From: Azolla caroliniana | Lineage: Eukaryota > Plantae > Polypodiophyta | Direction of reading: 5' to 3' | Length of the DNA stretch: 64,000 nucleotides | Assembly: GCA_043228905.1 (NCBI GenBank) | Contig: JBHGNT010000008.1 | Coordinates: 62,001 to 126,000, forward strand | In this document: in pieces, positions 21,701-47,135 of the stretch | Layout: each line of letters begins with the position of its first letter | Numbering within the stretch: the first letter of the stretch is position 1 | Translations under genes and position numbers: made by a program | The notes under the pieces: model-generated | Seen by the model: the letters and a program-made list of their open reading frames with translations, nothing else | Told to the model about the DNA's origin: nothing | Databases searched by the model: none

Positions 21701-24700
21701 TCGAAGCTAGCAAAGCTAGCTATGATATGAAATTAAAAAATGAAGAGTTTGAAACTCAGGTCGAGAGAAATGAAGAAATTCCAAAATTAGAGGAGGGAGT
21801 AGAGAAGAGCCCGAGAGTAAATTAAACTGTTCATACCTGGCCCATGTGATATCGGATTTTAGTGTTCAAACATGCGAATCGAAGCTAGCAAAGCTACCTA
21901 TGATATGGAATTAAAAAATCAAGCTTTTGAAACTCACGTAGAGAGACATGAAGAAATAATCAAAATTGAGGAGGGAGTTGAGAAGAGCCCGAGAGTAAAT
22001 TAAAATGTTCATACCTGGCCCATGTGGTATCAGATTTTAGTGTTCAAACATACGAATCGAAGCTACCAAGGCTAGCTATGATATAGAATTAAAAAATCTA
22101 AGTTTTGAAACTCAGGTCGAGAGACATGAAGAAATTCCAAATTCGAGGAGGGAGTAGAGAAGAGCCCGAGAGTAAATTAAAATGTTTAGACTTGGCCAAT
22201 ATGATATCGGATTTGAGTGTTTAAACATGCGAATGGAAGCTAACAAAGCTACCTATGATATGGAATAAAAAATCAAGATTTTCAAACTCAGGTCGAGAGA
22301 CATGAAGAAATTACCAAATTTGAGGAGGGCGTTGAGAAGAGCGCGTGAGTAAATTAAAATGTTCATACCTGGCCCATGTGATATAGGACTTTAGTGTTCA
22401 AACATGCGAATCGAAGCTAACAATGGTAGCTAGAATATGGCATTAAAAAATCAAGCTTTTGAAACTCAGGTCGAGAGACATGAAGAAATTACCAAATTAG
22501 AGGAGGGAGTTGAGAAGAGCCCAAGAGTAAATTAAAATGTTCATACCTGGCCCATGTGATATCGGATTTGAGTGTTCAAACATGCGAATCGAAGCTAACA
22601 ATGCTAGCTATGATATGGCATTAGAAAATCAAGCTTTTGAAACTCAGGTCGAGAGACATGAAGAAATTACCAAATTAGAGGAGGGAGTTGAGAAGAGCCC
22701 GAGAGTAAATTAAAATGTTCATACCTGGCCCATGTGATATCGGATTTTAGTGTTCAAACATGCGAATCGAAGCTAACAATGCTAACTGAGATATGGAATT
22801 AAAAAATCAAGCTTTTGAAACTCAGGTCGAGAGACATGAAGAAATTACCAAAGTTGAGGAGGGAGTTGAGAAGAGCCCGAGAGTAAATTAAAATGTTCAT
22901 ACCTGTCCCATGTGATATCCGATTTTAGTGTTCAAACATTTGAATCGAAGCTTACAATGTTAGCTATCATATGGAAGTATAAAATAAGGATTTTGAAACT
23001 CACGTTCAGAGACATGAAGAAATAACCAAATTTGAGGAGGGAGTTGAGAAGAGCCTGAGAGTAAATTAAAATGTTCATACCTGGCCCATGTGATATCGGA
23101 TTTTAGTGTTCAAACATGCGAATCGAAGCTAACAACGGTAGCTATGATATCGAATTAAAAAATCAAGATTTTGAAACTCAAGTCGAGAGACATGAAGAAA
23201 TTACCAAATTAAAGGAGGCATTGAGAAGAGCGCATGAGTAAATTAAAATGTTCATACCTGGCCCATGTGATATAGGATTTTAGTCTTCAAACATGCGAAT
23301 CGAAGCTAACAATGCTACCTATGATATGTACTTAGAAAATCAATCTTTTGAAACTCATGTCGAAAGACATGAAGAAATTACCAAATTAGAGGAAGGAGTA
23401 GAGAAGAGGCCGAGAGTAAATTAAAATGTTCATAACTGGCCCATTGAATATCGGATTTTAGTGTTCAAACAGGCGAATCGATGCTAACACTGCTAGCTAT
23501 GATATGGAATTATAAAATCAAGATTTTGAAACTCAGGTCGAGAGACATGAAGAAATTACCAAATTAGAGGAGGGATTGAGAAGAGCCCGAGAGTAAATTA
23601 AAATGTTCATACCTGGCCCATGTGATATCGGATTTTAGTGTTCAAACATGGGAATCGAAGCTAACAATGCTAGCTATGATATGGAATTAAAAAATCAATG
23701 TTTTGAAACTCAGGTCGAGAGCCATGAAGAAATTACCAAATTAGAGGAGGGAGTAGAGAAGAGCCCGAGAGTAAATTAAAATGTTCATACCTGGCCCATG
23801 TGATATCGGATTTTAGTGTACAAATATGCGAATCGAAGCTAACAATGCGAGCTATGTTATGGAAATCAAAAATCAAGATTTTGAAACTCAGGTCGAGAGA
23901 CATGAAGAAATTACCAAATTAGAGGAGGGAGTTGAGAAGAGCCCGAGAGTAAATTAAAATGTTCATACCTGGCCCATGTGATATCGGATTTTAGTGTTTA
24001 AACATGCGAATCGAAGCTAGCAAAGCTACCTATGATATGGAATTAAAAAATCAAGGTTTTGAAACTCACGTCGAGAGACATGAAGAAATTCCCAAATTAG
24101 AGGAGGGAGTTGAGAAGAGCCCGAGAGTAAATTAAAATGTTCATACCTGTCCCATGTGATATTGGATTTTAGTGTTCAAACATTTGAATCGAAGCTTACA
24201 ATGTTAGCTATCATATGGAAGTAAAAAATAAGGATTTTGAAACTCACGTTGAGAGACATGAAGAAATAACCAAATTTGAGGAGGTAGTTGAGAAGAGCCC
24301 GAGAGTAAATTAAAATGTTCATACCTGGCCCATGTTATATCAGATTTTAGTGTTCAAATATGAGAATCGAAGCTAACAAAGGTACCCATGATATGGAATT
24401 AAAAAATCAAGATTTTGAATCTCAGGTCGAGAGACATGAAGACATTCCCAAATTAGAGGAGGGAGTAGAGAGGAGCTCGAGAGTAAATTAAAATGTTCAT
24501 ACCTGGCCCATGTGATATCGGATTTTAGTGTTCAAATATGCGAATCGAAGCTAACAAAGGTACCTATGATATGGAATTAAAAAATCAAGGTTCTGAAACT
24601 CAGGTCGAGAGACATGAAGAAATTACCAAATTAGAGGAGGGAGTAGAGAAGAGGCCGAGAGTAAATTAAAATGTTCATACCTGGCCCATGTGATATCGGA

Positions 24701-27700
24701 TTTTAGTGTTTAAACATGCGAATCGAAGCTAGCAAAGCTACCTATGATATGGAATTAAAAAATCAAGCTTTTGAAACTCACGTCGAGAGACATGAAGAAA
24801 TTACCAAATTTGAGGAGGGAGTTGAGAAGAGCCCGAGAGTAAATTAAAATGTTCATACCTGGCCCATGTGATATCAGATTTTAGTGTTCAAACATAAGAA
24901 TCGAAGCTAACAAGGCTAGCTATGATATAGAATTAAAAAATGTAGGTTTTGAAACTCAGGTCAAGAGACATGAAGAAATTCCGAAATTAGAGGAGGGAGT
25001 AGAGAAGAGCCCGAGAGTAAATTAAAATGTTTAGACTTGGCCAATGTGATATCGGATTTGAGTGTTTAAACATGCGAATGGAAGCTAACATGTTTAGGCT
25101 AGCTATGATATGGAATAAAAAATCAAGATTTTCAAACTCAGGTCGAGAGACATGAAGAAATTACCAAATTTGAGGAGGGAGTTTAGAAGAGCGCGTGAGT
25201 AAATTAAAATGTTCATACCTGGCCCATGTGATATAGGATTTTAGTGTTCAAACATGCGAATCGAAGCTAACAATGCTAGCTATAATATGGAATTAAAAAA
25301 TCAAGATTTTCAAACTCAGGTCGAGAGACATGAAGAAATTCCAAAATTAGAGGAGGGAGTAGAGAAGAGCCCGAGAGTAAATTAAAATGTTCATACCTGG
25401 CCCATGTGATATCGGATTTTAGTGTTCAAACATACGAATCGAAGCTAACAAGTCTAGCTATGATATCCAATTAAAAAATGAAGGTTTTGAAACTCAGGTC
25501 GAGAGACATGAAGAAATTACCAAATTAGAGGAGGGAGTAGAGAAGAGCCCGAGAGTAAATTAAAATGTTCATACCTGGCCCATGTGATATCGGATTTTTG
25601 TGTTCAAACATGCGAATCGAAGCTAACAATGCTACCTATGATATGGAATTAAAAAATGAAGCTTTTGAAACTCAGGTCGAGAGACATGAAGAAATTACCA
25701 AATTTGAGGAGGGAGTTGAGAAGAGCCCGAGAGTAAATTAAAATGTTCATACCTGTCCCATGTGATATTGGATTTTAGTGTTCAAACATTTGAATCGAAG
25801 CTTACAATGTTAGCTATCATATGGAAGTAAAAAATAAGGATTTTGAAACTCACGTTGAGAGATATGAAGAAATAACCAAATTTGAGGAGGGAGTTGAGGA
25901 GAGCCCGAGAGTAAATTCAAATGTTCATACCTGGCCCATGTTATATCGGATTTTAGTGTTCAAATATGCGAATCGAAGCTAACAATGCTAGCTATGATAT
26001 GGAATTAAAAAATCAATGTTTTGAAACTCAGGTTGAGAGACATGAAGAAATTACCAAATTAGAGGAGGGAGTAGAGAAGAGGCCGAGAGTAAATTAAAAT
26101 GTTCATACCTGGCCCATGTGATATCGGATTTTAGTGTTTAAACATGCGAATCGAAGCTAGCAAAGCTACCTATGATATGGAATTAAAAAATCAAGCTTTC
26201 GAAACTCACGTCGAGAGACATGAAGAAATAACCAAATTTGAGGAGGGAGTTGAGAAGAGCCCGAGAGTAAATTAAAATGTTCATACCTGGCCCATGTGAT
26301 ATCAGATTTTAGTGTTCAAACATAAGAATCGAAGCTAACAAGGCTAGCTATGATATAGAATTAAAAAATCTAGGTTTTGAAACTCAGGTCGAGAGACATG
26401 AAGAAATTCCCAAATTAGAGGAGGGAGTAGAGAAGAGCCCGAGAGTAAATTAAAATGTTTAGACTTGGCCAATGTGATATCGGATTTGAGTGTTTAAACA
26501 TGCGAATGGAAGCTAACAAAGCTACCTATGATATGGAATAAAAAATCAAGATTTTCAAACTCAGGTCGAGAGACATGAAGAAATTACCAAATTTGAGGAG
26601 GGAGTTGAGAAGAGCGCGTGAGTAAATTAAAATGTTCATACCTGGCCCATCTGATATAGGATTTTAGTGTTCAAAAATGGGAATCGAAGCTAACAATGCT
26701 AGCTATAATATGGAATTAAAAAATCAAGATTTTCAAACTCAGGTCGAGAGACATGAAGAAATTCCAAAATTAGAGGAGGGAGTAGAGAAGAGCCCGAGAG
26801 TAAATTAAAATGTTCATACCTGGCCCATGTGATATCGGATTTTAGTGTTCAAACATACAAATCAAAACTAACAAGTCTAGCTATGATATCGAATTAAAAA
26901 ATCAAGGTTTTGAAACTCAGGTCGAGAGACATGAAAAAATTACCAAATTAGAGGAGGGAGTAGAGAAGAGGCCGAGAGTAAATTAAAATGTTTATACCTG
27001 GCGCATGTGATATCGGATTTTTGTGTTCAAACATGCGAATCGAAGCTAGCAAAGCTACCTATTATATGGAATTCAAAAATCAAGCTTTTGAAACTCACGT
27101 CAAGAGACATGAAGAAATAACCAAATTTGAGGAGAGAGTTGAGAAGAGCCCGAGAGTAAATTAAAATGTTCATACCTGGCCCATGTGATATCGGATTTGA
27201 GTGTTCAAACATGCGAATCGAAGCTAACAATGCTAGCTATGATATGGAATTAGAAAATCAAGCTTTTGAAACTCAGGTCGAGAGATATGAAGAAATTACC
27301 AAATTTGAGGAGGGAGTTGAGAAGAGCCCGAGAGTAAATTAAAATGTTCATACCTTGCCCATGTGATATCGGATTTTTGTGTTCAAACATGCGAATCGAA
27401 GCTAACAATGCTACCTATGATATGGAATTAAAAAATCAAGCTTTCGAAACTCAGGTCGAAAGACATGAAGAAATTACCAAATTTGAGGAGGGAGTTGAGA
27501 AGAGCCCGAGAGTAGATTAAAATGTTCATACCTGTCCCATGTGATATTGGATTTTAGTGTTCAAACATTTGAATCTAAGCTTAAAATGTTAGCTATCATA
27601 TGGAAGTAAAAAATAAGGATTTTGAAACTCACGTTGAGAGATATGAAGAAATAACCAAATTTGAGGAGGGAGTTGAGAAGAGCCCGAGAGTAAATTCAAA

Positions 27701-27771
27701 TGTTCATACCTGGCCCATGTTATATCGGATTTTAGTGTTCAAATATGCGAATCGAAGCTAACAATGCTAGC

Positions 27772-29025
27772 TATGATATGGAATTAGAAAATCAAGGTTT
27801 TGAAACTCAGGTCGAGAGACATGAAGAAATTACCCAATTTGAGGAGGGAGTTGAGAAGAGCCCGATCGTAAATTAGTATGTTCATAGCTGGCCCATGTGA
27901 TATCCGATTTTAGTGTTCAAACATACGATTCGAAGCTAACAAGGCTAGCTATGATATGGAATTAAAAAATCAAGGTTTTGAAACTCAGGTTGAGAGACAT
28001 AAAGAAATTCCCAAATTAGAGGAGGGAGTAGAGAAGAGCCCGAGAGTAAATTAAAATGTTTAGACCTGGCCCATGTGATATCGGATTTTCGTGTTCAAAT
28101 ATGCGAATCGAAGCTAACAATGCGAGCTATGATATCGAATTAAAAAATCAAGATTTTGAATTTCAGGTCGAGAGACATGAAGAAATTCCCGAATTAGAGG
28201 AGGGAGTAGAGAAGAGCCCAAGAGTAAATTAAAATGTTTAGACTTGGCCAATGTGATATCGGATTTTAGTGTTTAAACATTGGAATCGAAGCTAACAACG
28301 CAAGCTATGATATGGAATTAAAAAATCAAGATTTTGAAACTCACGTCGAGAGACATGAAGAAATTACCCAATTTGAGGAGGGAGTTGAGAAGAGCCCGAG
28401 AGTAAATTAAAATGTTTAGACCTGGCCCATGTGATATCGGATTTTAGTGTTCAAACATACGAATCGAAGCTAACAAGGCTAGCTATGATATCGAATTAAA
28501 AAATCAAGCTCTTAAAACTCACGTCGAGAGACATGAAGAAATTACTAAATTTGAGGAGGGAGTTGAGAAGAGCCCGAGAGTAAATTAAAATGTTCATACC
28601 TGCCCATGTGATATCGGATTTTAGTGTTCAAACATGCGAATCGAGGCTAACAACGCTAGCTATGACATGGAATGAAAAAATCAAGATTTTGGAATTTGCA
28701 AATTAGAGGAGGGAGTAGATAAGAGCCCGAGAGTAAATTAAAATGTTTAGACCTGGCCCATGTGATATCGGATTTTAGTGTTTAAACATGCGAATCGAAG
28801 CTAACAAAGGTACCTATGATATGCAATTAAAAAATCAAGATTTTGGAACTCAGGTCGAGAGATATGACAAAATTACCAAATTTGAGGAGGGAGTTGAGAA
28901 GAGCGCGTGAGTAAATTAAAATGTTCAGACCTGGCCCATGTGATATAGAATTTTAGTCTTCAAACATGAGAATCGAAGCTAACAACGCAAGCTATGATAT
29001 GGAATTCCCAAATTAGAGGAGGGAG
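27772..29025 (+). repeat. ~1.25-kb long-range copy of ~10458-11711
   Basis: The same 1-bp (CCTGCCCATG), 24-bp (TTTTGGAATTTGCA) and 46-bp (GGAATTCCCAAA) deletions recur at constant offset 17314 (11367/28681; 11687/29001). Confidence 0.9.
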
Positions 29026-29699
29026 TTGAGGAGAGCCCGAGAGTAAATTCAAATGTTCATACCTGGCCCATGTTATATCGGATTTTAGTGTTCAAATATG
29101 CGAATCGAAGCTAACAATGCTAGCTATGATATGGAATTAAAAAATCAATGTTTTGAAACTCAGGTCGAGAGACATGAAGAAATTACCAAATTAGAGGAGG
29201 GAGTAGAGAAGAGGCCGAGAGTAAATTAAAATGTTCATACCTTGCCCATGTGATATCGGATTTTTGTGTTCAAACATGCGAATCGAAGCTAACAATGCTA
29301 CCTATGATATGGAATTAAAAAATCAAGCTTTCGAAACTCAGGTCGAGAGACATGAAGAAATTACCAAATTTGAGGAGGGAGTTGAGAAGAGCCCGAGAGT
29401 AGATTAAAATGTTCATACCTGTCCCAAGTGATATTGGATTTTAGTGTTCAAACATTTGAATCTAAGCTTAAAATGTTAGCTATCATATGGAAGTAAAAAA
29501 TAAGGATTTTGAAACTCACGTTGAGAGATATGAAGAAATAACCAAATTTGAGGAGGGAGTTGAGAAGAGCCCGAGAGTAAATTCAAATGTTCATACCTGG
29601 CCCATGTTATATCGGATTTTAGTGTTCAAATATGCGAATCGAAGCTAACAATGCTAGCTATGATATGGAATTAAAAAATCAATGTTTTGAAACTCAGGT

Positions 29700-30950
29700 C
29701 GAGAGACATGAAGAAATTACCAAATTAGAGGAGGGAGTAGAGAAGAGGCCGAGAGTAAATTAAAATGTTCATACCTGGCCCATGTGATATCGGATTTTAG
29801 TGTTTAAACATGCGAATCGAAGCTAGCAAAGCTACCTATGATATGGAATTAAAAAATCAAGCTTTCGAAACTCACGTTGAGAGACATGAAGAAATAACCA
29901 AATTTGAGGAGGGAGTTGAGAAGAGCCCGAGAGTAAATTAAAATGTTCATACCTGGCCCATGTGATATCAGATTTTAGTGTTCAAACATAAGAATCGAAG
30001 CTAACAAGGCTAGCTATGATATAGAATTAAAAAATCTAGGTTTTGAAACTCAGGTCGAGAGACATGAAGAAATTCCCAAATTAGAGGAGGGAGTAGAGAA
30101 GAGCCCGAGAGTAAATTAAAATGTTTAGACTTGGCCAATGTGATATCGGATTTGAGTGTTTAAACATGCGAATGGAAGCTAACAAAGCTACCTATGATAT
30201 GGAATAAAAAATCAAGATTTTCAAACTCAGGTCGAGAGACATGAAGAAATTACCAAATTTGAGGAGGGAGTTGAGAAGAGCGCGTGAGTAAATTAAAATG
30301 TTCATACCTGGCCCATCTGATATAGGATTTTAGTGTTCAAACATGGGAATCGAAGCTAACAATGCTAGCTATAATATGGAATTAAAAAATCAAGATTTTC
30401 AAACTCAGGTCGAGAGACATGAAGAAATTCCAAAATTAGAGGAGGGAGTAGAGAAGAGCCCGAGAGTAAATTAAAATGTTCATACCTGGCCCATGTGATA
30501 TCGGATTTTAGTGTTCAAACATACAAATCAAAACTAACAAGTCTAGCTATGATATCGAATTAAAAAATCAAGGTTTTGAAACTCAGGTCGAGAGACATGA
30601 AAAAATTACCAAATTAGAGGAGGGAGTAGAGAAGAGGCCGAGAGTAAATTAAAATGTTTATACCTGGCGCATGTGATATCGGATTTTGGTGTTCAAACAT
30701 GCGAATCGAAGCTAGCAAAGCTACCTATGATATGGAATTCAAAAATCAAGCTTTTGAAACTCACGTCAAGAGACATGAAGAAATAACCAAATTTGAGGAG
30801 GGAGTTGAGAAGAGCCCGAGAGTAAATTAAAATGTTCATACCTGGCCCATGTGATATCGGATTTGAGTGTTCAAACATGCGAATCGAAGCTAACAATGCT
30901 AGCTATGATATGGAATTAGAAAATCAAGCTTTTGAAACTCAGATCGAGAG
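29700..30950 (+). repeat. Duplicate of ~26.0-27.3 kb block (offset 3666)
   Basis: Shared CCCATCTGATATAGG, CATACAAATCAAAACTAACAAGTCTAG and TTTATACCTGGCGCATG. Identical spurious ORFs lie at 27027 and 30693. Confidence 0.85.
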
Positions 30951-31899
30951 ATATGAAGAAATTACCAAATTAGAGGAGGGAGTTGAGAAGAGCCCGAGAG
31001 TAAATTAAAATGTTCATACCTGGCCCATGTGATATCGGATTTTTGTGTTCAAACATGCGAATCGAAGCTAACAATGCTACCTATGATATGGAATTAAAAA
31101 ATCAAGCTTTCGAAACTCAGGTCTAGAGACATGAAGAAATTACCAAATTTGAGGAGGGAGTTGAGAAGAGCCCGAGAGTAGATTAAAATGTTCATACCTG
31201 TCCCATGTGATATTGGATTTTAGTGTTCAAACATTTGAATCTAAGCTTAAAATGTTAGCTATCATATGGAAGTAAAAAATAAGGATTTTGAAACTCACGT
31301 TCAGAGACATGAAGAAATAACCAAATTTGAGGAGGGAGTTGAGAAGAGCCCGAGAGTAAATTAAAATGTTCATACCTGGCCCATGTGATATCGGATTTTA
31401 GTGTTCAAACATGCGAATGGAAGCTAACAACGATAGCTATGATATGGAATTAAAAAATCAAGATTTCGAAACTCAGGTCGAGAGACATGAAGAAATTACC
31501 AAATTTGAGGAGGGAGTTGAGAAGAGCCCGAGAGTAGATTAAAATGTTCATACCTGTCCCATGTGAAATTGGATTTTAGTGTTCAAACATTTGAATCTAA
31601 GCTTAAAATGTTAGCTATCATATGGAAGTAAAAAATAAGGATTTTGAAACTCACGTTCAGAGACATGAAGAAATAACCAAATTTGAGGAGGGAGTTGAGA
31701 AGAGCCCGAGAGTAAATTAAAATGTTCATACCTGGCCCATGTGATATCGGATTTTTGTGTTCAAACATACGAATCGAAGCTAACAAGGCTAGCTATGATA
31801 TCGAATTAAAAAATCAAGATTTTGAAACTCAGGTCGAGAGACATGAAGAAATTACCAAATTAAAGGAGGGATTGAGAAGAGCGCATGAGTAAATTAAAA

Positions 31900-34800
31900 T
31901 GTTCATACCTGGCCCATGTGATATAGGATTTTAGTGTTCAAACATGCGAATCGAAGCTAACAATGCTACCTATGATATGGACTTAAAAAATAAATCTTTT
32001 GAAACTCATGTCGAAAGACATGAAGAAATTACCAAATTAGAGGAAGGAGTAGAGAAGAGGCCGAGAGTAAATTAAAATGTTCATAACTGGCCCATTGAAT
32101 ATCGGATTTTAGTGTTCAAACAGGCGAATCGAAGCTAACAATGCTAGCTATGATATGGAATTAAAAAATCAAGATTTTGAAACTCAGGTCGAGAGACATG
32201 AAGAAATTACCAAATTAGAGGAGGGATTGAGAAGAGCCTGAGAGTAAATTAAAATGTTCATACCTGGCCCATGTGATATCGGATTTTATTGTTCAAACAT
32301 GGGAATCGAAGCTAACAATGCTAGCTATGATATAGAATTAAAAAATCAATGTTTTGAAACTCAGGTCGAGAGACATGAAGAAATTACCAAATTAGAGGAG
32401 GGAAGTAGAGAAGACGCCGAGAGTAAATCAAAATGTTCATACCTGGCCCATGTGATATCGGATTTTAGGGTTTAGGGTTGCGAATCGAAGCTAACAATGC
32501 GAGCTATGTTATGGAATTAAAAAATCAATGTTTTGAAACTCAGGTCGAGAGACATGAAGAAATTACCAAATTAGAGGAGGGAGTAGAGAAGAGCCCGAGA
32601 GTAAATTAAAATGTTCATACCTGTCCCATGTGATATCCGATTTTAGTGTTCAAAAATTTGAATCGAAGCTTACAATGTTAGCTATCATATGGAAGTAAAA
32701 AATAAGGATTTTGAAACTCACGTTGAGAGACATGAAGAAATAACCAAATTTGAGGAGGGAGTTGAGAAGAGCCCGAGAGTAAATTAAAATGTTCATACCT
32801 GGCCCATGTGATATCGGATTTTAGTGTTCAAACATGCAAATCGAAGCTAACAACGGTAGCTATTATATCGAATTAAAAAATCAAGATTTTGAAACTCATG
32901 TCGAGAGACATGAAGAAATTACCAAATTAAAGGAGGGATTGAGAAGAGCGCATGAGTAAATTAAAATGTTCATACCTGGCCCATGTGATATAGGATTTTA
33001 GTGTTCAAACATGCGAATCGAAGCTAACAATGCTACCTATGATATGGACTTAAAAAATCAATCTTTTGAAACTCATGTCGAAAGACATGAAGAAATTACC
33101 AATTTAGAGGAAGGAGTAGAGAAGAGGCCGAGAGTAAATTAAAATGTTCATAACTGGCCCATTGAATATCGGATTTTAGTGTTCAAACAGGCGAATCGAA
33201 GCTAACAATGCTAGCTATGATATGGAATTAAAAAATCAAGATTTTGAAACTCAGGTCGAGAGACATGAAGAAATTCCCAAATTAGAGGAGGGATTGAGAA
33301 GAGCCCGAGAGTAAATTAAAATGTTCATACCTGGCCCATGTGATATCGGATTTTAGTGTTCAAATATGCGAATCGAAGCTAACAATGCGAGCTATGTTAT
33401 GGAATTAAAAAATCAATGTTTTGAAACTCAGGTCGAGAGACATGAAGAAATTACCAAATTAGAGGAGGGAGTAGAGAAGAGCCCGAGAGTAAATTAAAAT
33501 GTTCATACCTGTCCCATGTGATATCCGATTTTAGTGTTAAAACATTTGAATCGAAGCTTACAATGTTAGCTATCATATGGAAGTAAAAAATAAGGATTTT
33601 GAAACTCACGTTGAGAGACATGAAGAAATAACCAAATTTGAGGAGGGAGTTGAGAAGAGCCCGAGAGTAAATTAAAATGTTCATACCTGGCCCATGTGAT
33701 ATCGGATTTTAGTGTTCAAACATGCGAATCGAAGCTAACAATGGTAGCTATGATATCGAATTAAAAAATCAAGATTTTGAAACTCATGTCGAGAGACATG
33801 AAGAAATTACCAAATTAAAGGAGGGATTGAGAAGAGCGCATGAGTAAATTAAAATGTTCATACCTGGCCCATGTGATATAGGATTTTAGTGTTCAAACAT
33901 GCGAATCGAAGCTAATAATGCTACCTATGATATGGACTTAAAAAATCAATCTTTTGAAACTCATGTCGAAAGACATGAAGAAATTACCAATTTAGAGGAA
34001 GGAGTAGAGAAGAGGCCGAGAGTAAATTAAAATGTTCATAACTGGCCCATTGAATATCGGATTTTAGTGTTCAAACAGGCGAATCGAAGCTAACAATGCT
34101 AGCTATGATATGGAATTAAAAAATCAAGATTTTGAAACTCAGGTCGAGAGACATGAAGAAATTCCCAAATTAGAGGAGGGATTGAGAAGAGCCCGAGAGT
34201 AAATTAAAATGTTCATACCTGGCCCATGTGATATCGGATTTTTGTGTTCAAACATGCGAATTGAAGCTAACAATGCTACCTATGATATGGAATTAAAAAA
34301 TGAAGCTTTTGAAACTCAGGTCGAGAGACATGAAAAAATTACCAAATTTGAGGAGGGAGTTGAGAAGAGCCCGAGATCAAATTAAAATGTTCATACCTGT
34401 CCCATGTGATATCGGATTTTAGTGTTCAAACATTTGAATCGAAGCTTACAATGTTAGCTATCATATGAAAGTAAAGAATAAGGATTTTGAAAGTCACGTT
34501 GAGAGACATGAAGAAATAACCAAATTTGCGGAGGGAGTTGAGAAGAGCCCGAGAGTAAATTAAAATGTTCATACCTGGCCCATGTGATATCGGATTTTTG
34601 TGTTCAAACATACGAATCGAAGCTAACAAGGCTAGCTATGATATCGAATTAAAAAATCAAGGTTTTGAAACTCAGGTCAAGAGACATGAAGAAATTACCA
34701 AATTAAAGGAGGGATTGAGAAGAGCGCATGAGTAAATTAAAATGTTCATACCTGGCCCATGTGATATAGGATTTTAGTGTTCAAACATGCGAATCGAAGC

Positions 34801-37800
34801 TAACAATGCTACCTATGATATGAACTTAAAAAATAAATCTTTTGAAACTCATGTCGAAAGACATGAAGAATTTACCAAATTAGAGGAAGGAGTAGAGAAG
34901 AGGCCGAGAGTAAATTAAAATGTTCATAACTGGCCCATTGAATATCGGATTTTAGTGTTCAAACAGGCGAATCGAAGCTAACAATGCTAGCTATGATATG
35001 GAATTAAAAAATCAAGATTTTGAAACTCATGTCGAGAGACATGAAGAAATTACCAAATTAGAGGAGGGATTGAGAAGAGCCTGAGAGTAAATTAAAATGT
35101 TCATACCTGGCCCATGTGATATCGGATTTTATTGTTCAAACATGGGAATCGAAGCTAACAATGCTAGCTATGATATAGAATTAAAAAATCAATGTTTTGA
35201 AACTCAGGTCGAGAGACATGAAGAAATTACCAAATTAGAGGAGGGAAGTAGAGAAGACGCCGAGAGTAAATTAAAATGTTCATACCTGGCCCATGTGATA
35301 TCGGATTTTAGTGTTCAAATATGCAAATCGAAGCTAACAATGCGAGCTATGTTATGGAATTAAAAAATCAATGTTTTGAAACTCAGGTCGAGAGACATGA
35401 AGAAATTACCAAATTAGAGGAGGGAGTAGAGAAGAGCCCGAGAGTAAATTAAAATGTTCATACCTGTCCCATGTGATATCCGATTTTAGTGTTCAAACAT
35501 TTGAATCGAAGCTTACAATGTTAGCTATCATATGGAAGTAAAAAATAAGGATTTTGAAACTCACATTGAGAGACATGAAGAAATAACCAAATTTGAGGAG
35601 GGAGTTGAGAAGAGCCCGAGAGTAAATTAAAATGTTCATACCTGGCCCATGTGATATCGGATTTTAGTGTTCAAACATGCGAATCGAAGCTAACAACGGT
35701 AGCTATGATATCGAATTAAAAAATCAAGATTTTGAAACTCAGGTCGAGAGACATGAAGAAATTACCAAATTAGAGGAGGGATTGAGAAGAGCCTGAGAGT
35801 AAATTAAAATGTTCATACCTGGCCCATGTGATATAGGATTTTAGTGTTCAAACATGCGAATCGAAGCTAATAATGCTACCTATGATATGGACTTAAAAAA
35901 TCAATCTTTTGAAACTCATGTCGAAAGACATGAAGAAATTACCAATTTAGAGGAAGGAGTAGAGAAGAGGCCGAGAGTAAATTAAAATGTTCATAACTGG
36001 CCCATTGAATATCGGATTTTAGTGTTCAAACAGGCGAATCGAAGCTAACAATGCTAGCTATGATATGGAATTAAAAAATCAAGATTTTGAAACTCAGGTC
36101 GAGAGACATGAAGAAATTCCCAAATTAGAGGAGGGATTGAGAAGAGCCCGAGAGTAAATTAAAATGTTCATACCTGGCCCATGTGATATCGGATTTTTGT
36201 GTTCAAACATGCGAATCGAAGCTAACAATGCTACCTATGATATGGAATTAAAAAATGAAGCTTTTGAAACTCAGGTCGAGAGACATGAAAAAATTACCAA
36301 ATTTGAGGAGGGAGTTGAGAAGAGCCCGAGATCAAATTAAAATGTTCATACCTGTCCCATGTGATATCGGATTTTAGTGTTCAAACATTTGAATCGAAGC
36401 TTACAATGTTAGCTATCATATGGAAGTAAAAAATAAGGATTTTGAAAGTCACGTTTAGAGACATGAAGAAATAACCAAATTTGCGGAGGGAGTTGAGAAG
36501 AGCCCGAGAGTAAATTAAAATGTTCATACCTGGCCCATGTGATATCGGATTTTTGTGTTCAAACATACGAATCGAAGCTAACAAGGCTAGCTATGATATC
36601 GAATTAAAAAATCAAGGTTTTGAAACTCAGGTCAAGAGACATGAAGAAATTACCAAATTAAAGGAGGGATTGAGAAGAGCGCATGAGTAAATTAAAATGT
36701 TCATACCTGGCCCATGTGATATAGGATTTTAGTGTTCAAACATGCGAATCGAAGCTAACAATGCTACCTATGATATGAACTTAAAAAATAAATCTTTTGA
36801 AACTCATGTCGAAAGACATGAAGAAATTACCAAATTAGAGGAAGGAGTAGAGAAGAGGCCGAGAGTAAATTAAAATGTTCATAACTGGCCCATTGAATAT
36901 TGGATTTTAGTGTTCAAACAGGCGAATCGAAGCTAACAATGCTAGCTATGATATGGAATTAAAAAATCAAGATTTTCAAACTCAGGTCGAGAGACATGAA
37001 GAAATTACCAAATTAGAGGAGGGATTGAGAGGAGCCTGAGAGTAAATTAAAATGTTCATACCTGGCCCATGTGATATCGGATTTTATTGTTCAAACATGG
37101 GAATCGAAGCTAACAATGCTAGCTATGATATAGAATTAAAAAATCAATATTTTGAAACTCAGGTCGAGAGACATGAAGAAATTACCAAATTAGAGGAGGG
37201 AAGTAGAGAAGACGCCGAGAGTAAATTAAAATGTTCATACCTGGCCCATGTGATATCGGATTTTTGTGTTCAAATATGCGAATCGAAGCTAACAATGCGA
37301 GCTATGTTATGGAATTAAAAAATCAATGTTTTGAAACTCAGGTCGAGAGACATGAAGAAATTACCAAATTAGAGGAGGGAGTAGAAAAGAGCCCGAGAGT
37401 AAATTAAAATGTTCATACCTGTCCCATGTTATATCCGATTTTAGTGTTCAAACATTTGAATCGAAGCTTACAATGTTAGCTATCATATGAAAGTAAAGAA
37501 TAAGGATTTTGAAACTCACGTTGAGAGACATGAAGAAATAACCAAATTTGCGGAGGGAGTTGAGAAGAGCCCGAGAGTAAATTAAAATGTTCATACCTGG
37601 CCCATGTGATATCGGATTTTTGTGTTCAAACATACGAATCGAAGCTAACAAGGCTAGCTATGATATCGAATTAAAAAATCAAGGTTTTGAAACTCAGGTC
37701 AAGAGACATGAAGAAATTACCAAATTAAAGGAGGGATTGAGAAGAGCGCATGAGTAAATTAAAATGTTCATACCTGGCCCATGTGATATCGGATTTTAGT

Positions 37801-40800
37801 GTTCACACATGCGAATCGAAGCTAACAATGCTACCTATGATATGGACTTAAAAAATCAATCTTGTGAAACTCATGTCGAAAGACATGAAGAAATTACCAA
37901 TTTAGAGGAAGGAGTAGAGAAGAGGTCGAGAGTAAATTAAAATGTTCATAACTGGCCCATTGAATATCGGATTTTAGTGTTCAAACAGGCGAATCGAAGC
38001 TAACAATGCTAGCTATGATATGGAATTAAAAAATCAAGATTTTGAAACTCAGGTCGAGAGACATGAAGAAATTCCCAAATTAGAGGAGGGATTGAGAAGA
38101 GCCCGAGAGTAAATTAAAATGTTCATACCTGGCCCATGTGATATCGGATTTTATTGTTCAAACATGGGAATCGAAGGTAACAATGCTAGCTATGATATAG
38201 AATTAAAAAATCAATGTTTTGAAACTTAGGTCGAGAGACATGAAGAAATTACCAAATTAGAGGAGGGAAGTAGAGAAGACGCCGAGAGTAAATTAAAATG
38301 TTCATACCTGTCCCATGTGATATCGGATTTCAGTGTTCAAACATTTGAATCGAAGCTTACAATGTTAGCTATCATATGGAAGTAAAAAATAAGGATTTTG
38401 CAAGTCACGTTGAGAGACATGAAGAAATAACCAAATTTGAGGAGGGAAGTAGAGAAGAGGCCGAGAGTAAATTCAAATGTTCATACCTGGCCCATGTGAT
38501 ATCGGATTTTAGTGTTCAAATATGCGAATCGAAGCTAACAATGCTAGCTATGATATGGAATTAAAAAATCAAGATTTTGAAAGTCACGTTGAGAGACATG
38601 AAGAAATAACCAAATTTGAGGAGGGATTGAGAAGAGCCCGAGAGTAAATTAAAATGTTCATACCTGGCCCATGTGATATCGGATTTTAGTGTTCAAACAT
38701 ACGAATCGAAGCTAACAAGGCTAGCTATGATATCGAATTAAAAAATCAAGGTTTTGAAACTCACGTCGAGAGACATGAAGAAATGACCAAATGAGAGGAG
38801 GGATTGAGAAGAGCGCTTGAGTAAATTAAAATGTTCATACCTGGCCCATGTGATATCGGATTTTCGTGTTCAAATATGCGAATCGAAGCTAACAATGCGA
38901 GCTATGTTATGGACTTAAAAAATAAATCTTTTGAAACTCATGTCGAAAGACATGAAGAAATTAGCAAATTAGAGGAAGGAGTAGAGAAGAGGCCGAGAGT
39001 AAATTAAAATGTTCATAACTGGCCCATTGAATATCGGATTTTAGTGTTCAAACAGGCGAATCGAAGCTAACAATGCTAGCTATGATATGGAATTAAAAAA
39101 TCAAGATTTTGAAACTCAGGTTGAGAGACATGAAGAAATAACCAAATTTGAGGAGGGAGTTGAGAAGAGCCCGAGAGTAAATTAAAATGTTCATAACTAG
39201 CCCATTGAATATCGGATTTTAGTGTTCAAACATGCGAATCGAAGCTAACAACGGTAGCTATGATATCGAATTAAAAAATCAAGATTTTGAAACTCATGTC
39301 GAGAGACATGAAGAAATTACCAAATTAAAGGAGGGATTGAGAAGAGCCTGAGAGTAAATTAAAATGTTCATACCTGGCCCATGTGATATAGGATTTTAGT
39401 GTTCACACATGCGAATCGAAGCTAACAATGCTACCTATGATATGGACTTAAAAAATCAATCTATTGAAACTCATGTCGAAAGACATGAAGAAATTACCAA
39501 TTTAGAGGAAGGAGTAGAGAAGAGGTCGAGAGTAAATTAAAATGTTCATAACTGGCCCATTGAATATCGGATTTTAGTGTTCAAACAGGCGAATCGAAGC
39601 TAACAATGCTAGCTATGATATGGAATTAAAAAATCAAGATTTTGAAACTCAGGTCGACAGACATGAAGAAATTCCCAAATTAGAGGAGGCATTGAGAAGA
39701 GCCCGAGAGTAAATTAAAATGTTCATACCTGGCCCATGTGATATCGGATTTTAGTGTTCAAACATGCGAATTGAAGCTAACAATGCTACCTATGATATGG
39801 AATTAAAAAATGAAGATTTTGAAACTCAGGTCGAGAGACATGAAAAAATTACCAAATTTGAGGAGGGAGTTGAGAAGAGCCCGACATCAAATTAAAATGT
39901 TCATACCTGTCCCATGTGATATCGGATTTTAGTGTTCAAACATTTGAATCGAAGCTTACAATGTTAGCTATCATATGGAAGTAAAAAATAAGGATTTTGA
40001 AAGTCACGTTGAGAGACATGAAGAAATAACCAAATTTGAGGAGGGAGTTGAGAAGAGCCCGAGAGTAAAATAAAATGTTCATACCTGGCCCATGTGATAT
40101 CGGATTTTTGTGTTCAAACATACGAATCGAAGCTAACAAGGCTAGCTATGATATCGAATTAAAAAATCAAAGTTTTGAAACTCAGGTCAAGAGACATGAA
40201 GAAATTACCAAATTAATGGAGGGATTGAGAAGAGCGCATGAGTAAATTAAAATGTTCATACCTGGCCCATGTGATATAGGATTTTAGTGTTCAAACATGC
40301 GAATCGAAGCTAACAATGCTACCTATGATATGAACTTAAAAAATAAATCTTTTGAAACTCATGTCGAAAGACATGAAGAAATTACCAAATTAGAGGAAGG
40401 AGTAGAGAAGAGGCCGAGTGTAAATTAAAATGTTCATAACTGGCCCATTGAATATCGGATTTTAGTGTTCAAACAGGCGAATCGAAGCTAACAATGCTAG
40501 GTATGATATGGAATTCAAAAATCAAGCTTTTGAAACTCAGGTCGAGAGACATGAAGAAATTCCCAAATTAGAGGAGGCATTGAGAAGAGCCCGAGAGTAA
40601 ATTAAAATGTTCATACCTGGCCCATGTGATATCGGATTTTTGTGTTCAAACATGTGAATTGAAGCTAACAATGCTACCTATGATATGGAATTAAAAAATG
40701 AAGATTTTGAAACTCAGGTCGAGAGACATGAAAAAATTACCAAATTTGAGGAGGGAGTTGAGAAGAGCCCGAGATCAGATTAAAATGTTCATACCTGTCC

Positions 40801-42400
40801 CATGTGATATCGGATTTTAGTGTACAAACATTTGAATCGAAGCTTACAATGTTAGCTATCATATGGAATTAAAAAATAAGGATTTTGAAAGTCACGTTGA
40901 GAGACATGAAGAAATAACCAAATTTGCGGAGGGAGTTGAGAAGAGCCCGAGAGTAAATTAAAATGTTCATACCTGGCCCATGTGATATCCGATTTTTGTG
41001 TTCAAACATACGAATCGAAGCTAACAAGGCTAGCTATGATATCGAATTAAAAAATCAAGGTTTTGAAACTCAGGTCAAGAGACATGAAGAAATTACCAAA
41101 TTAAAGGAGGGATTGAGAAGAGCGCTTGAGTAAATTAAAATGTTCATACCTGGCCCATGTGATATAGGATTTTAGTGTTCAAACATGCGAATCGAAGCTA
41201 ACAATGCTACCTATGATATGAACTTAAAAAATAAATCTTTTGAAACTCATGTCGAAAGACATGAAGAAATTACCAAATTAGAGGAAGGAGTAGAGAAGAG
41301 GCCGAGTGTAAATTAAAATGTTCATAACTGGCCCATTGAATATCGGATTTTAGTGTTCAAACAGGCGAATCGAAGCTAACAATGCTAGGTATGATATGGA
41401 ATTAAAAAATCAAGATTTTGAAACTCAGGTCGAGAGACATGAAGATATTCCCAAATTAGAGGAGGCATTGAGAAGAGCCCGAGAGTAAATTAAAATGTTC
41501 ATACCTGGCCCATGTGATATCGGATTTTAGTGTTCAAACATGGGAATCTAAGCTAACAATGCTAGCTATGATATAGTATTAAAAAATCAATGTTTTGAAA
41601 CTCAAGTCGAGAGACATGAAGAAATTACCAAATTAGAGGAGGGAAGTAGAGAAGAGGCCGAGAGTAAATTAAAATGTTCATACCTGGCCCATGTGATATC
41701 GGATTTTTGTGTTCAAACATGCGAATAGAAGCTAACAATGCTACCTATGATATGGAATTAAAAAATGAAGCTTTTGAAACTCAGCTCGAGAGACATGAAG
41801 GAATTACCAAATTTGAGGAGGGAGTTGAGAAGAGCCCGAGAGTAAATTAAAATGTTCATACCTGGCCCATGTGATATCGGATTTTTGTGTTCAAACATAC
41901 GAATCGAAGCTAACAAGGCTAGCTATGATATCGAATTAAAAAATCAAAGTTTTGAAACTCAGGTCAAGAGACATGAAGAAATTACCAAATTAATGGAGGG
42001 ATTGAGAAGAGCGCATGAGTAAATTAAAATGTTCATACCTGGCCCATGTGATATAGGATTTTAGTGTTCAAACATGCGAATCGAAGCTAACAATGCTACC
42101 TATGATATGAACTTAAAAAATAAATCTTTTGAAACTCATGTTGAAAGACATGAAGAAATTACCAAATTAGAGGAAGGAGTAGAGAAGAGGCCGAGAGTAA
42201 ATTAAAATGTTCATAACTGGCCCATTGAATATCGGATTTTAGTGTTCAAACAGGAGAATCGATGCTAACAATGCTAGCTATGATATAGAATTAAAAAATC
42301 AAGATTTTGAAACTCAGCTCGAGAGACATGAAGAAATTACCAAATTAGACGAGGGATTGAGAAGAGCCTGAGAGTAAATTAAAATGTTCATACCTGGCCC
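31900..42400 (+). repeat. Mixed 5-mer (888 bp) / 6-mer (1067 bp) HORs forming a 1955-bp 11-mer
   Basis: Marker CATAACT lies at 32082, 33149, 34037, 34925, 35992, 36880, 37947, 39014, 39547, 40435, 41323 and 42212. ORF pairs 34426/36381 and 35097/37052 are 1955 apart. Confidence 0.85.
32464..32479 (+). repeat. Interstitial plant telomeric motif (TTTAGGG)2TT replacing part of a monomer
   Basis: Sequence reads GATTTTAGGGTTTAGGGTTGCG where sister monomers read GATTTTAGTGTTCAAATATGCG. Confidence 0.85.
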
Positions 42401-45400
42401 ATGTGATATCGGATTTTATAGTTCAAACATGGGAATCGAAGCTAACAATGCTAGCTATGATATAGTATTAAAAAATCAATGTTTTGAAACTCAGGTCGAG
42501 AGACATGAAGAAATTACCAAATTAGAGGAGGGAAGTAGAGAAGAGGCCGAGAGTAAATTAAAATGTTCATACCTGGCCCATGTGATATCGGATTTTTGTG
42601 TTCAAACATGCGAATAGAAGCTAACAATGCTACCTATGATATGGAATTAAAAAATGAAGCTTTTGAAACTCAGGTCGAGAGACATGAAGAAATTACCAAA
42701 TTTGAGGAGGGAGTTGAGAAGAGCCCGAGAGTAAATTAAAATGTTCATACCTGGCCCATGTGATATCGGATTTTTGTGTTCAAACATACGAATCGAAGCT
42801 AACAAGGCTAGCTATGATATCGAATTAAAAAATCAAAGTTTTGAAACTCAGGTCAAGAGACATGAAGAAATTACCAAATTAATGGAGGGATTGAGAAGAG
42901 CGCATGAGTAAATTAAAATGTTCATACCTGGCCCATGTGATATAGGATTTTAGTGTTCAAACATGCGAATCGAAGCTAACAATGCTACCTATGATATGGC
43001 ATTAGAAAATCAAGCTTTGGAAACTCAGGTCGAGAGATATGAAGAAATTACCAAATTAGAGGAGGGAGTTGAGAAGAGCCCGAGAGTAAATTAAAATGTT
43101 CATACCTGGCCCATGTGATATCGGATTTGAGTGTTCAACCATGCGAATCGAAGCTAACAATGCTAGCTATGATATGGCATTAGAAAATCAAGCTTTGGAA
43201 ACTCAGGTCGAGAGATATGAAGAAATTACCAAATTAGAGGAGGGAGTTGAGAAGAGCCCGAGAGTAAATTAAAATGTTCATACCTGGCCCATGTGATATC
43301 GGATTTTTGTGTTCAAACATGCGAATTGAAGCTAACAATGCTACCTATGATATGGAATTAAAAAATGAAGCTTTTGAAACTCAGGTCGAGAGACATGAAG
43401 AAATTACCAAATTTGAGGAGGGAGTTGAGAAGAGCCCGAGATCAAATTAAAATGTTCATACCTGTCCCATGTCATATCGGATTTTAGTGTTCAAACATTT
43501 GAATCGAAGGTTACAATGTTAACAATCATATCGAAGTAAAAAATAAGGATTTTGAAAGTCACGTTGAGAGACATGAAGAAATAACCAAATTTGAGGAGGG
43601 AAGTAGAGAAGAGGCCGAGAGTAAATTAAAATGTTCATACCTGGCCCATGTAATATCGGATTTTAGTGTTCAAATATGCGAATCGAAGCTAACAATGCTA
43701 GCTATGATATGGAATTAAAAAATCAAGATTTTGAAAGTCACGTTGAGAGACATGAAGAAATAACCAAATTTGAGGAGGGATTGAGAAGAGCCCGAGAGTA
43801 AATTAAAATGTTCATACCTGGCCCATGTGATATCGGATTTTAGTGTTCAAACATACGAATCGAACCTAACAAGGCTAGCTATGATATCGAATTAAAAAAT
43901 CAAGGTTTTGAAACTCAGGTCGAGAGACATGAAGAAATTACCAAATTAAAGGAGGGATTGAGAAGAGCGCATGAGTGAATTAAAATGTTCATACCTGGCC
44001 CATGTGATATAGGATTTTAGTGTTCAAACATGCGAATCGAAGCTGACAATGCTACCTATGATATGGACTTAAAAAATAATTCTTTTGAAACTCATGTCGA
44101 AAGACATGAAGAAATTACCAAATTAGAGGAAGGAGTAGAGAAGAGGCCAAGAGTAAATTAAAATGTTCATAACTGGCCCATTGAATATCGGATTTTAGTG
44201 TTCAAACAGGCGAATCGAATCTAACATGGCTAGCTATGATATGGAATTAAAAAATCAAGATTTTGAAACTCAGGTCGAGAGACATGAAGAAATTACCAAA
44301 TTAGAGGAGGGATTGAGAAGAGCCCGAGAGTAAATTAAAATGTTCATAACTGGCCCATTGAATATCGGATTTTAGTGTTCAAACAGGCGAATCGAATCTA
44401 ACAATGCTAGCTATGATATGGAATTAAAAAATCAAGATTTTGAAACTCAGGTCGAGAGACATGAAGAAATTACCAAATTTGAGGAGGGAGTTGAGAAGAG
44501 CCCGAGAGAATTAAAATGTTCATACCTGGCCCATGTGATATCAGATTTTAGTGTTCAAACATAAGAATCGAAGCTAACAAGGCTAGCTATGATATAGAAT
44601 TAAAAAATATAGGTTTTCAAACTCAGGTCAAGAGACATGAAGAAATTCCCAAATTAGAGGAGGGAGTAGACAAGAGCCCGAGAGTAAATTAAAATGTTTA
44701 GACTTGGCCAATGTGATATCGGATTTGAGTGTTTAAACATGCGAATGGAAGCTAACAAAGCTACCTATGATATGGAATAAAAAATCAAGATTTTCAAACT
44801 CAGGTCGAGAGACATGAAGAAATTACCAAATTTGAGGAGGGAGTTGAGAAGAGCGCGTGAGTAAATTAAAATGTTCATACCTGGCCCATGTGATATAGGA
44901 TTTTAGTGTTCAAACATGCGAATCGAAGCTAACAATGCTAGCTATAATATGGAATTACAAAATCAAGATTTTCAAACTCAGGTCGAGAGACATGAAGAAA
45001 TTCCAAAATTAGAGGAGGGAGTAGAGAAGAGCCCGAGAGTAAATTAAAATGTTCATACCTGGCCCATGTGATATCGGATTTTAGTGTTCAAACATACAAA
45101 TCGAAGCTAACAAGTCTAGCTATGATATCGAATTAAAAAATCAAGGTTTTGAAACTCAGGTCGAGAGACATGAAAAAATTACCAAATTAGAGGAGGGCGT
45201 AGAGAAGAGGCTGAGAGTAAATTAAAATGTTCATACCTGGCCCATGTGATATCGGATTTTAGTGTTCAAATATGCGAACCGAAGCTAACAATGCGAGCTA
45301 TGTTATGCAGATCAAAAATCAAGATTTTGAAACTCAGGTCGAGAGACATGAAGAAATTCCAAAATTAGAGGAGGGAGTAGAGAAGAGCCCGAGAGTAAAT

Positions 45401-46294
45401 TAAAATGTTTATACCTGGCGCATGTGATATCGGATTTTTGTGTTCAAACATGTGAATCGAAGCTAGCAAAGCTACCTATGATATGGAATTCAAAAATCAA
45501 GCTTTTGAAACTCACGTCAAGAGACATGAAGAAATAACCAAATTTGAGGAGGGAGTTGAGAAGAGCCCGAGAGTAAATTAAAATGTTCATACCTGGCCCA
45601 TGTGATATCGGATTTTAGTGTTCAAACATGAGAATCGAAGCTAAGAATGTTAGCTATGATATGGAATTAAAAAATCAAGGTTTTGAAACTCAGGTCGAGA
45701 GACATGAAGAAATTACCAAATTAGAGGAGGGAGTAGAGAAGAAGCCGAGAGTAAATTAAAATGTACATACCTGGCGCATGTGATATCGGATTGTAGTGTT
45801 CAAACATGCGAATCGAAGCTAACAATGCTAGCTATGATATAGAATTAAAAAATCAAGATTTTGAAACTCAGGTCGAGAGATATGAAGAAATTACCAAATT
45901 AGAGGAGGGAGTTGAGAAGAGCCCGAGAGTAAATTAAAATGTTCATACCTTGCCCATGTGATATCGGCTTTTTGTGTTCAAACATGCGAATCGAAGCTAA
46001 CAATGCTACCTATGATATGGAATTAAAAAATCAAGCTTTCGAAACTCAGGTCGAGAGACATGAAGAAATTACCAAATTAGAGGAGGGAGTTGAGAAGAGC
46101 CCGAGAGTAGATTAAAATGTTCATACCTGTCCCATGTGATCTTGGATTTTAGTGTTCAAACATTTGAATCTAAGCTTAAAATGTTAGCTATCATATGGAA
46201 GTAAAACATAAGGATTTTGAAACTCACGTTCAGAGACATGAAGAAATAACCAAATTTGAGGAGAGAGTTGAGAAGAGCCCAAGAGTAAATTAAA

Positions 46295-47135
46295 ATGTTC
46301 ATACCTGACCGATATGATATCGGATTTTTGTTTTCAAATATGCAATTGGAAGCTATCAAAGCTACCTATGATATGCAATTAAAAAATCAAGATTTTGAAA
46401 CTCAGGTCGAGAGACATGAAGACATTCCCAAATTTGAGGAGGGAGTATAGAAGAGCCCGAGAGTAAATTTTAGTGTTCATACCTGGCCCATGTGATATCG
46501 GATTTTAGTGTTCAAACTTGCGAATGGTAGCTAACAAAGCTACCTATGATATGGAATTAAAAAATCAAGATTTTGAGACTCAGGGCGCGAGAAATGAAGA
46601 AATTACCAAATTTGAGGAGGGAGTTGAGAAGAGCGCGTGAGTAAATTAAAATGTTCATACCTGGCCCATGTGATATCGGATGTTAGTGTTCAAATATGCG
46701 AATGGAAGCTAACAAAGGTACCTATGTTATGGATTTCAAAATACAAGATTTTGAAACTCAGGTTGAGAGACATGAAGACATTCCCAAATTAGAGGAGGGA
46801 GTAGAGAGGAGCCCGAGAGTAAATTAAATGTTCATACGTGGCCCATGTGATATCGGATTTTATTGTTCAGCCATGCGAATTAAAGCTAACGAAGCTACCT
46901 ATGATATGGAATGAAAAAATCAAGATTTTGAAACTCAGGTCGAGAGATATGACAAAATTCCCGAATTAGAGCAGGGAGTAGAGAAGAGCCCGAGAGTAAA
47001 TTAAAATGTTTAGACTTGGCCAATGTGATATCGGATTTTAGTGTTTAAACATGCGAATGGAAGCTAACAAAGCTACCTATGATATGGAATAAAAAATCAA
47101 GATTTTGAAACTCAGGTCGAGAGACATGAAGAAAT
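46295..47135 (+). repeat. ~0.85-kb long-range copy of ~20585-21425
   Basis: The private variants CAATTGGAAGCTATC (20631/46343), GAATGGTAGC, TTAAATGTTCATACGTGG, TTCAGCCATGCGAATTAAAGCTAACG and TTAGAGCAGG recur in the same order at offset ~25712. Confidence 0.88.

What the first reader, a model, noticed from the sequence alone, without database searches (positions are those of the whole stretch)
32461..32482. Telomere repeats written into a satellite monomer, in register: candidate telomerase-mediated repair scar
Seen: this monomer reads GATTTTAG-GGTTTAGGGT-TGCG where HOR sisters (e.g. ~35304, ~51579, ~52824) read GATTTTAG-TGTTCAAATA-T(G/A)C. That is 6 changes in 10 bp, giving TTTAGGG TTTAGGG TT exactly in phase with the monomer's own TTTAG. 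The spacing is unchanged (anchor 32467 to 32645 = 178). Known: TTTAGGG is the Arabidopsis-type plant telomere repeat, telomerase primes on short telomere-like 3' ends, and short interstitial telomeric sequences are attributed to insertion at double-strand breaks. Inference: a break after TTTAG was extended by ~1.5 repeats and then end-joined back into the array. If so, every monomer carries a latent telomerase seed (TTTTAG). I saw this variant only once in the window, so it postdates the local HOR amplification.
Basis: partly seen in the sequence, partly recalled or inferred. Interest (0 to 1): 0.8.

Follow-up and report, generated by a model that had tools for sequence, protein, structure and literature searches.

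The report
Telomere patch inside a satellite monomer
One of 358 copies of a 178-base plant satellite repeat has ten bases replaced, without any change of length, by plant telomere sequence; it is likely a repair scar copied from a telomeric template, a known kind of event, but it is a single case not yet confirmed in raw reads.

Summary
In a 64-kb array of a 178-bp satellite, one monomer of 358 has bases 32469-32478 replaced 10-for-10 (six changes against two near-identical sisters). This gives a perfect 16-bp tract, (TTTAGGG)2 plus TT, in phase with the monomer's own TTTAG, the best telomerase-type seed of 356 possible ends. Independent point mutation is excluded (expected 1e-7 to 6e-5 per window; no monomer has two of the six changes), and the window holds no template. 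Best reading (0.6): a 3' end at TTTAG was extended on a telomeric template, likely by telomerase, and rejoined; this is the short interstitial-telomere scar known from mammals. Raw-read support and the species' telomere repeat remain untested. The scan noted similar short tracts in a diatom satellite before. It may be a snapshot of the step that a 2026 Arabidopsis preprint could not explain by point mutation. Modest interest: one event.

The parts
32464..32479 (+). Perfect 16-bp plant-type telomeric tract, (TTTAGGG)2 plus TT, G-rich strand on +
32464..32468 (+). The monomer's own TTTAG: 5-nt seed in telomeric phase, the only 5-nt seed among 356 possible 3' ends of the consensus; intact in 250 of 334 monomers
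32469..32478 (+). Replaced 10 bp (six changes against the sister allele TGTTCAAATA); net length change zero; the base at 32479 fits both the old monomer and the telomeric phase
32356..32534 (+). Host monomer (179 bp in this phasing, with a 1-bp insertion shared by 21 monomers)
32429..32429 (+). Private T>C change 40 bp upstream (0 of 333 others); could belong to the same conversion tract or be independent
35199..35377 (+). Nearest sister monomer, in a duplicated block 2843 bp away; holds the ordinary allele (empty site)
37154..37332 (+). Second nearest sister monomer, ordinary allele
1..64000 (+). Uninterrupted head-to-tail 178-bp satellite array with higher-order repeats; likely centromeric (inferred from unit length and array size, not tested)

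Best explanation
Ten bases of one satellite monomer are replaced by telomeric sequence in phase with the monomer's own TTTAG, likely because a broken or stalled 3' end at that TTTAG was extended on a telomeric template, most likely by telomerase, and then rejoined to the array. Shown: the tract, its phase, the empty sisters, the absence of intermediates and of a template in the window. Inferred: a free 3' end after 32468; addition of 10 or 11 bases (about one and a half repeats); loss of the same number of monomer bases. For the rejoining I favour return to the old template in register over free end-joining, because it explains the zero length change: the added 11 bases can still form 5 Watson-Crick and 3 G-T wobble pairs with the old opposite strand, including the last base. 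Telomerase RNA, telomeric DNA and a telomere-linked retroelement as the template cannot be told apart from the sequence. The tract most likely has no function; it is a scar.
For: Perfect 16-bp tract, unique in 64 kb. Expected number of monomers with a perfect 14-mer by independent substitution: 9e-8, 4e-6 and 6e-5 in 358 at 1.2, 3 and 6% divergence; a random 10-base replacement gives such a tract with probability 2.6e-7. It starts at the only 5-nt seed of 356 ends; 1-8 nt in register with the insertion mark mammalian short ITSs (PMC2246262). No template in the window: best match of the 11-mer has 3 mismatches on + and 4 on -. The first-step T>G allele is in 0 of 333 other monomers. Telomeres are added at breaks in the Arabidopsis centromeric satellite (10.64898/2026.07.24.740321). 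More than one telomeric repeat per monomer by point mutation is called negligible in 10.64898/2026.05.10.723265. Pairing count. The window looks accurate: 6 singleton small indels against 104 singleton substitutions in 334 monomers.
Against: One event only. The two-step local route gives identical letters, and the array shows local templated changes elsewhere (25091, 46470, 61885). None of 21 larger deletions in 17 irregular segments has filler, telomeric or other, in the alignments. With the two plant templates seen in PMC6765143 the tract would need two rounds and would end inside the template (my inference). Contigs of 4 public runs show the ordinary allele as the majority at all six sites and no telomeric loose end among the 24 of 327 rows shown. 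No genome is held, so the species' telomere repeat and other copies could not be checked.
Confidence: 0.6

Rival explanations
1. No outside template: a T>G point mutation turned the monomer's near-telomeric stretch into one perfect repeat, and a local slip (replication slippage or polymerase-theta-type synthesis) then copied the preceding 7 bases over the next 7.
For: Reproduces the observed sequence exactly and needs no length coincidence: 3 placements give a tract of 14 or more, all with this T>G and period 7, and 2 of them give the observed letters. The consensus is one change away from a perfect heptamer at this place only. Single-change telomeric motifs are common in Arabidopsis centromeres. 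Other local templated changes exist in the array.
Against: 0 of 1780 placements give such a tract without the prior change. The intermediate is in 0 of 333 monomers. My rough product of T>G frequency (median 0.3% at T columns), 1-2 local overwrites in 334 monomers and 2 of 1780 placements is about 1e-5 per window; this assumes independent steps, and the window was picked from a very large scan.
Confidence: 0.17
2. The tract arose elsewhere (a monomer at a satellite-telomere junction, or a class of monomers carrying this variant) and was copied into this monomer by non-allelic gene conversion.
For: Gene conversion is in register by nature. In Arabidopsis mutation-accumulation lines 15 of 16 clusters of centromeric point mutations had a donor monomer on the same chromosome, mean tract 58.5 bp. 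The private change at 32429 and the tract span 50 bp. In one search the depth at 32476 not accounted for by other letters is 3-11% of the depth crossing that place, which leaves room for such a class (upper bound only).
Against: No donor among 358 sites in 64 kb, whereas the median donor distance in Arabidopsis was 16 units. A private change within 50 bp on either side is expected about 17% of the time (my estimate from 104 singletons in 334 monomers). It moves the origin elsewhere and does not explain it.
Confidence: 0.12
3. Assembly, base-calling or polishing artefact.
For: Not confirmed in reads. Polishing over-corrected several hundred positions in Arabidopsis assemblies (section 5 of 10.1101/2025.06.02.657473). 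A singleton in a repeat array.
Against: Errors in that study were mostly small indels in simple repeats, and centromeric arrays were among the most accurate regions. The window has few private indels. An aligner would tend to clip rather than vote in six clustered changes (my inference).
Confidence: 0.08
4. Six independent point mutations accumulated stepwise.
For: Three of the six letters occur as separate polymorphisms; 58 of 357 other sites carry one of them.
Against: None carries two; three of the six letters are in 0 of 333 other monomers; expectation at most 6e-5 per window; the sisters differ by only 2 of 168 other columns.
Confidence: 0.01

Closest known systems
Short interstitial telomeric sequences inserted at double-strand breaks (Nergadze et al. 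2007, PMC2246262; passages read; review PMC6410037, passages)
   Same: Exact telomeric units at an internal site, an empty ancestral copy for comparison, several bases of the old sequence in register with the repeats, loss of bases at the break.
   Different: Plant heptamer; only about 1.5 repeats are new; the site is inside a tandem satellite; net length change is zero; one case, so no statistics.
Telomeric-repeat-bearing CEN178 monomers and CenTel satellites of Arabidopsis (10.64898/2026.05.10.723265; whole text read; supplements not seen)
   Same: A 178-bp satellite one change away from TTTAGGG; telomeric repeats inside a monomer; the authors propose telomerase healing, slippage, break-induced replication or microhomology joining for the step from one repeat to several.
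   Different: There single repeats arise by one substitution and are amplified to thousands of copies, and telomeric islands are about 180 bp, antisense to and abutting truncated monomers. Here there is one unamplified monomer with two repeats, no truncation, and no single-substitution class in the window.
De novo telomere addition at Cas9 breaks in the Arabidopsis centromeric satellite (10.64898/2026.07.24.740321; passages)
   Same: Sharp boundary between satellite and perfect TTTAGGG repeats.
   Different: There about 2 kb are added and the chromosome ends; here 10-11 bases, and the array goes on.
Non-allelic gene conversion between centromeric monomers (10.1101/2025.06.02.657473; passages and section 5)
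   Same: Clustered, length-neutral substitutions inside one monomer.
   Different: No donor monomer in the window; the new letters are telomeric, not satellite.

Membership tests
Short interstitial telomeric sequence from break repair | Exact telomeric units at an internal site | tested here: met
   16-bp perfect tract in mid-array
Short interstitial telomeric sequence from break repair | An empty ancestral site shows that the repeats are new | tested here: met
   Sisters at 35199 and 37154 hold the ordinary allele, 2 other differences in 168 columns
Short interstitial telomeric sequence from break repair | Old bases at the 5' junction in register with the repeats | tested here: met
   5 nt, the longest seed of 356 ends
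Short interstitial telomeric sequence from break repair | The repeat is the organism's own telomere repeat | not testable with these tools
No genome held.
Short interstitial telomeric sequence from break repair | Not derivable from local sequence | tested here: inconclusive
   No direct template, but one substitution plus a 7-bp local overwrite suffices
Short interstitial telomeric sequence from break repair | Present in the organism's DNA (raw reads) | tested here: inconclusive
   Contigs of 4 runs laid at 80% likeness neither show nor exclude it
CenTel satellite / interstitial telomeric repeat domain | Amplified mosaic unit with telomeric islands of about 180 bp | tested here: not met
   One monomer of 358, 16 bp
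CenTel satellite / interstitial telomeric repeat domain | Class of monomers with a single-substitution telomeric motif | tested here: not met
   0 of 333 in the window; the rest of the genome was not available
Non-allelic gene conversion tract | A donor monomer with the same letters | tested here: inconclusive
   None in 64 kb; outside the window not testable

The most novel reading that the evidence does not exclude
Telomerase acts as an in-register mutator of satellite DNA: it extends a nicked or stalled 3' end at the monomer's TTTAG by about one and a half repeats, the strand returns to its template, and the 178-bp period is kept. This monomer would then be a fresh snapshot of the missing step between ordinary centromeric monomers and centromere-derived interstitial telomere domains, reached without a prior point mutation, in a plant far from Arabidopsis.
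Probability: 0.2. Interest if true: 0.65.

Novelty: new member of a known kind. Interest (0 to 1): 0.3.

Why it matters
Telomeric repeats at repair junctions are known, and telomere addition to broken plant satellite DNA has been shown. What this case adds, if real, is a clean before-and-after pair inside a satellite: two near-identical empty sisters and one monomer with two perfect repeats and no length change. A 2026 preprint argues that large interstitial telomeric domains grow out of centromeric monomers but that point mutation cannot give more than one repeat per monomer; satellites with thousands of identical seeds allow the alternatives (telomerase, slippage, conversion) to be counted genome-wide. 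By itself one 10-bp event settles nothing.

Tried and rejected
Whole-genome scan: no genome held. Laying 4 of the 22 runs showed the satellite to be abundant with the ordinary allele dominant; only 40 of 115 difference rows, 24 of 327 loose-end rows and 32 of 17,406 pieces were displayed, so the variant is neither shown nor excluded. A read-level look centred on the variant was not obtained. A scan of metagenome contigs for a 29-base satellite motif found 0 stretches. No look-alike stretch in other scanned genomes, no earlier satellite note in this one. A fern telomerase RNA template was not found (two look-ups by recalled identifier found no paper). PMC12685076 held nothing relevant. Other telomere-like bits were examined and rejected as telomeric scars: 7522 (ordinary variant plus one extra T), 1710, 8923, 10169 (shared satellite variant); 25092 is better explained by a local inverted copy. 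Stepwise point mutation rejected. The ungapped block comparison failed through indels and was replaced by the monomer-wise one; one search ended in a script error. No report of a length-neutral two-repeat overwrite in a satellite monomer appeared in the listings of ten paper searches, which cover open-licence PMC and bioRxiv only; supplements of the bioRxiv preprints were not seen and may hold such cases.

Full report
Setting. The whole window is one head-to-tail array of a 178-bp satellite with higher-order repeats. An anchor just upstream of the site is found 358 times. A second anchor gave 353 monomers, of which the 334 of 174-183 bp were projected on a consensus; the other 19 were set aside and their segments examined apart. 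No genome is held for the window. An earlier, unchecked note calls the genome a fern and places one of its findings 2.09 Mb beyond the window's end, so the array would not be at the chromosome tip on that side. That the array is centromeric is my inference from unit length and size.

The observation. Positions 32464-32479 are a perfect 16-bp plant telomere tract, (TTTAGGG)2 plus TT. It is the only telomeric tract of 8 bp or more on either strand; one 7-mer lies at 25092. The two nearest sisters, monomers at 35199 and 37154, differ from the host monomer at 2 of the 168 columns outside the site and carry the ordinary allele. Ten bases, 32469-32478, are replaced by ten, with six changes; the spacing to the next monomer is 178. 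Neighbouring monomers match those of the block 2843 bp downstream at 0-8 differences each over 14 monomers, so the change reached this monomer after that duplication, at about 1-2% divergence around the site.

Chance and intermediates. The cluster is the densest in the array: 6 changes in 10 bp in 1 of 334 monomers, and a 12-mer at least 5 changes from every other monomer. Three of the six letters are in 0 of 333 other monomers, the other three in 29, 5 and 17. In the table, 58 of the other 357 sites carry one of the six letters, none two, none the first. Independent substitution from the consensus is expected to give a perfect 14-mer 9e-8 to 6e-5 times in 358 monomers for 1.2-6% divergence. 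The shuffle control allowed 2 mismatches and was passed by 37 of 100 shuffles, so it is not evidence either way. Stepwise mutation is rejected.

Where the letters came from. The window has no template: the new 11-mer matches elsewhere with 3 mismatches at best. The tract begins at the only place of 356 (178 columns, two strands) where the consensus offers five bases in telomeric phase; 250 of 334 monomers keep that seed. In mammals, short interstitial telomeric sequences sit at break sites with 1-8 bases in register far more often than chance, sometimes with deletions (passages of PMC2246262), and Cas9 breaks in the Arabidopsis centromeric satellite gain perfect telomeres with a sharp boundary (passages of 10.64898/2026.07.24.740321). 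TTTAGGG is the typical land-plant repeat (passages of PMC7046594, and PMC10856949), but this species' repeat was not checked.

The length problem. End-joining after addition would leave the exact 10-for-10 match to luck, and the array tolerates broken periods: 21 deletions of 10-124 bp in 17 segments, none with filler in the alignment. The added 11 bases could still form 5 Watson-Crick and 3 wobble pairs with the old opposite strand, so a return to the old template in register would explain it. This step is inferred, and I saw no paper that shows it.

Rivals. First, the consensus is one change from a perfect heptamer at this very place. That T>G change followed by copying the preceding 7 bases over the next 7 gives exactly the observed letters; 0 of 1780 column-and-period placements give a long tract without the change, 3 with it, 2 of them exact. 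The array does show local templated changes (see noticed in passing). My rough estimate for the two steps being independent is about 1e-5 per window, but the window comes from a very large scan and one error-prone repair event could do both, so it stays open (0.17). Second, clustered centromeric changes in Arabidopsis lines had a donor monomer in 15 of 16 cases, mean tract 58.5 bp (passages of 10.1101/2025.06.02.657473); the private change at 32429 and the tract span 50 bp. No donor is in the window, but one may lie outside (0.12). Third, artefact: 6 singleton small indels against 104 singleton substitutions argue for an accurate sequence, and centromeric arrays were assembled accurately in Arabidopsis though polishing over-corrected elsewhere (section 5 of the same preprint) (0.08).

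Public data. 22 runs were listed, all as contigs; 4 of them, from at most 3 samples, were laid at 80% likeness. The satellite is abundant in all four and the ordinary letter is the commonest at each of the six sites. The depth at 32476 left after the three other letters is 6, 11, 3 and 3% of the depth crossing it, an upper bound that includes gaps and misalignments. No telomeric loose end is among the 24 of 327 rows shown. Contigs drop rare variants, so this neither confirms nor excludes the tract. A metagenome scan for the satellite found nothing. Raw-read support stays open.

Relation to what is known. The anatomy is that of a short interstitial telomeric sequence: three defining features are met, two inconclusive, one untestable. 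It is not a CenTel unit: no amplification, no long island. The Arabidopsis preprint on CenTel satellites (10.64898/2026.05.10.723265, whole text; supplements not seen) finds that single repeats arise readily by one substitution, that several repeats in one monomer by point mutation are negligible, and names telomerase healing, slippage, break-induced replication or microhomology joining as the likely further step; monomers with repeats carry less CENH3. This monomer looks like a product of that further step. Passages of PMC6410037, PMC9498494, PMC6765143, PMC8287931, PMC8557442 and PMC12685076 were also seen; none gave a fern template or an equal case.

Verdict. Real in the assembly, not chance, most likely telomere-templated (0.6), enzyme unproven, single event, known kind. 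Interest 0.3; 0.65 if in-register overwriting by telomerase proved recurrent (probability 0.2).

Noticed in passing
window 25091-25095: Private 5-bp insertion in one monomer. It completes a telomeric 7-mer (25092-25098) but is also part of an inverted copy of 25068-25074 and of an 8-bp palindrome, so fold-back templated synthesis is the simpler reading.
   Followed up: partly
window 46464-46477: Length-neutral cluster in which one internal sub-repeat of the monomer has taken the letters of the other; the two lie 35 bp apart and match at 12 of 16. Looks like conversion or template switching within a monomer.
   Followed up: partly
window 61885-61895: Length-neutral cluster of 5 changes against the nearest sister that turns part of the monomer into a run of nine A.
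   Followed up: partly
window 4340, 11376, 28690; 50873, 56491; 51239, 56857; 11688, 29002; 15969, 16785: The same period-breaking deletions (24, 35, 43, 46 and 48 bp) recur in copies of higher-order blocks, some between short direct repeats; the array does not strictly keep its 178-bp period.
   Followed up: partly
window 17971, 22778, 17317: Three further monomers whose 12-mer differs by 3 from every other monomer, with no template identified.
   Followed up: no
whole window: Of 104 singleton substitutions only 7 are C>T or G>A; probably because such changes recur and so are not singletons, not tested.
   Followed up: no
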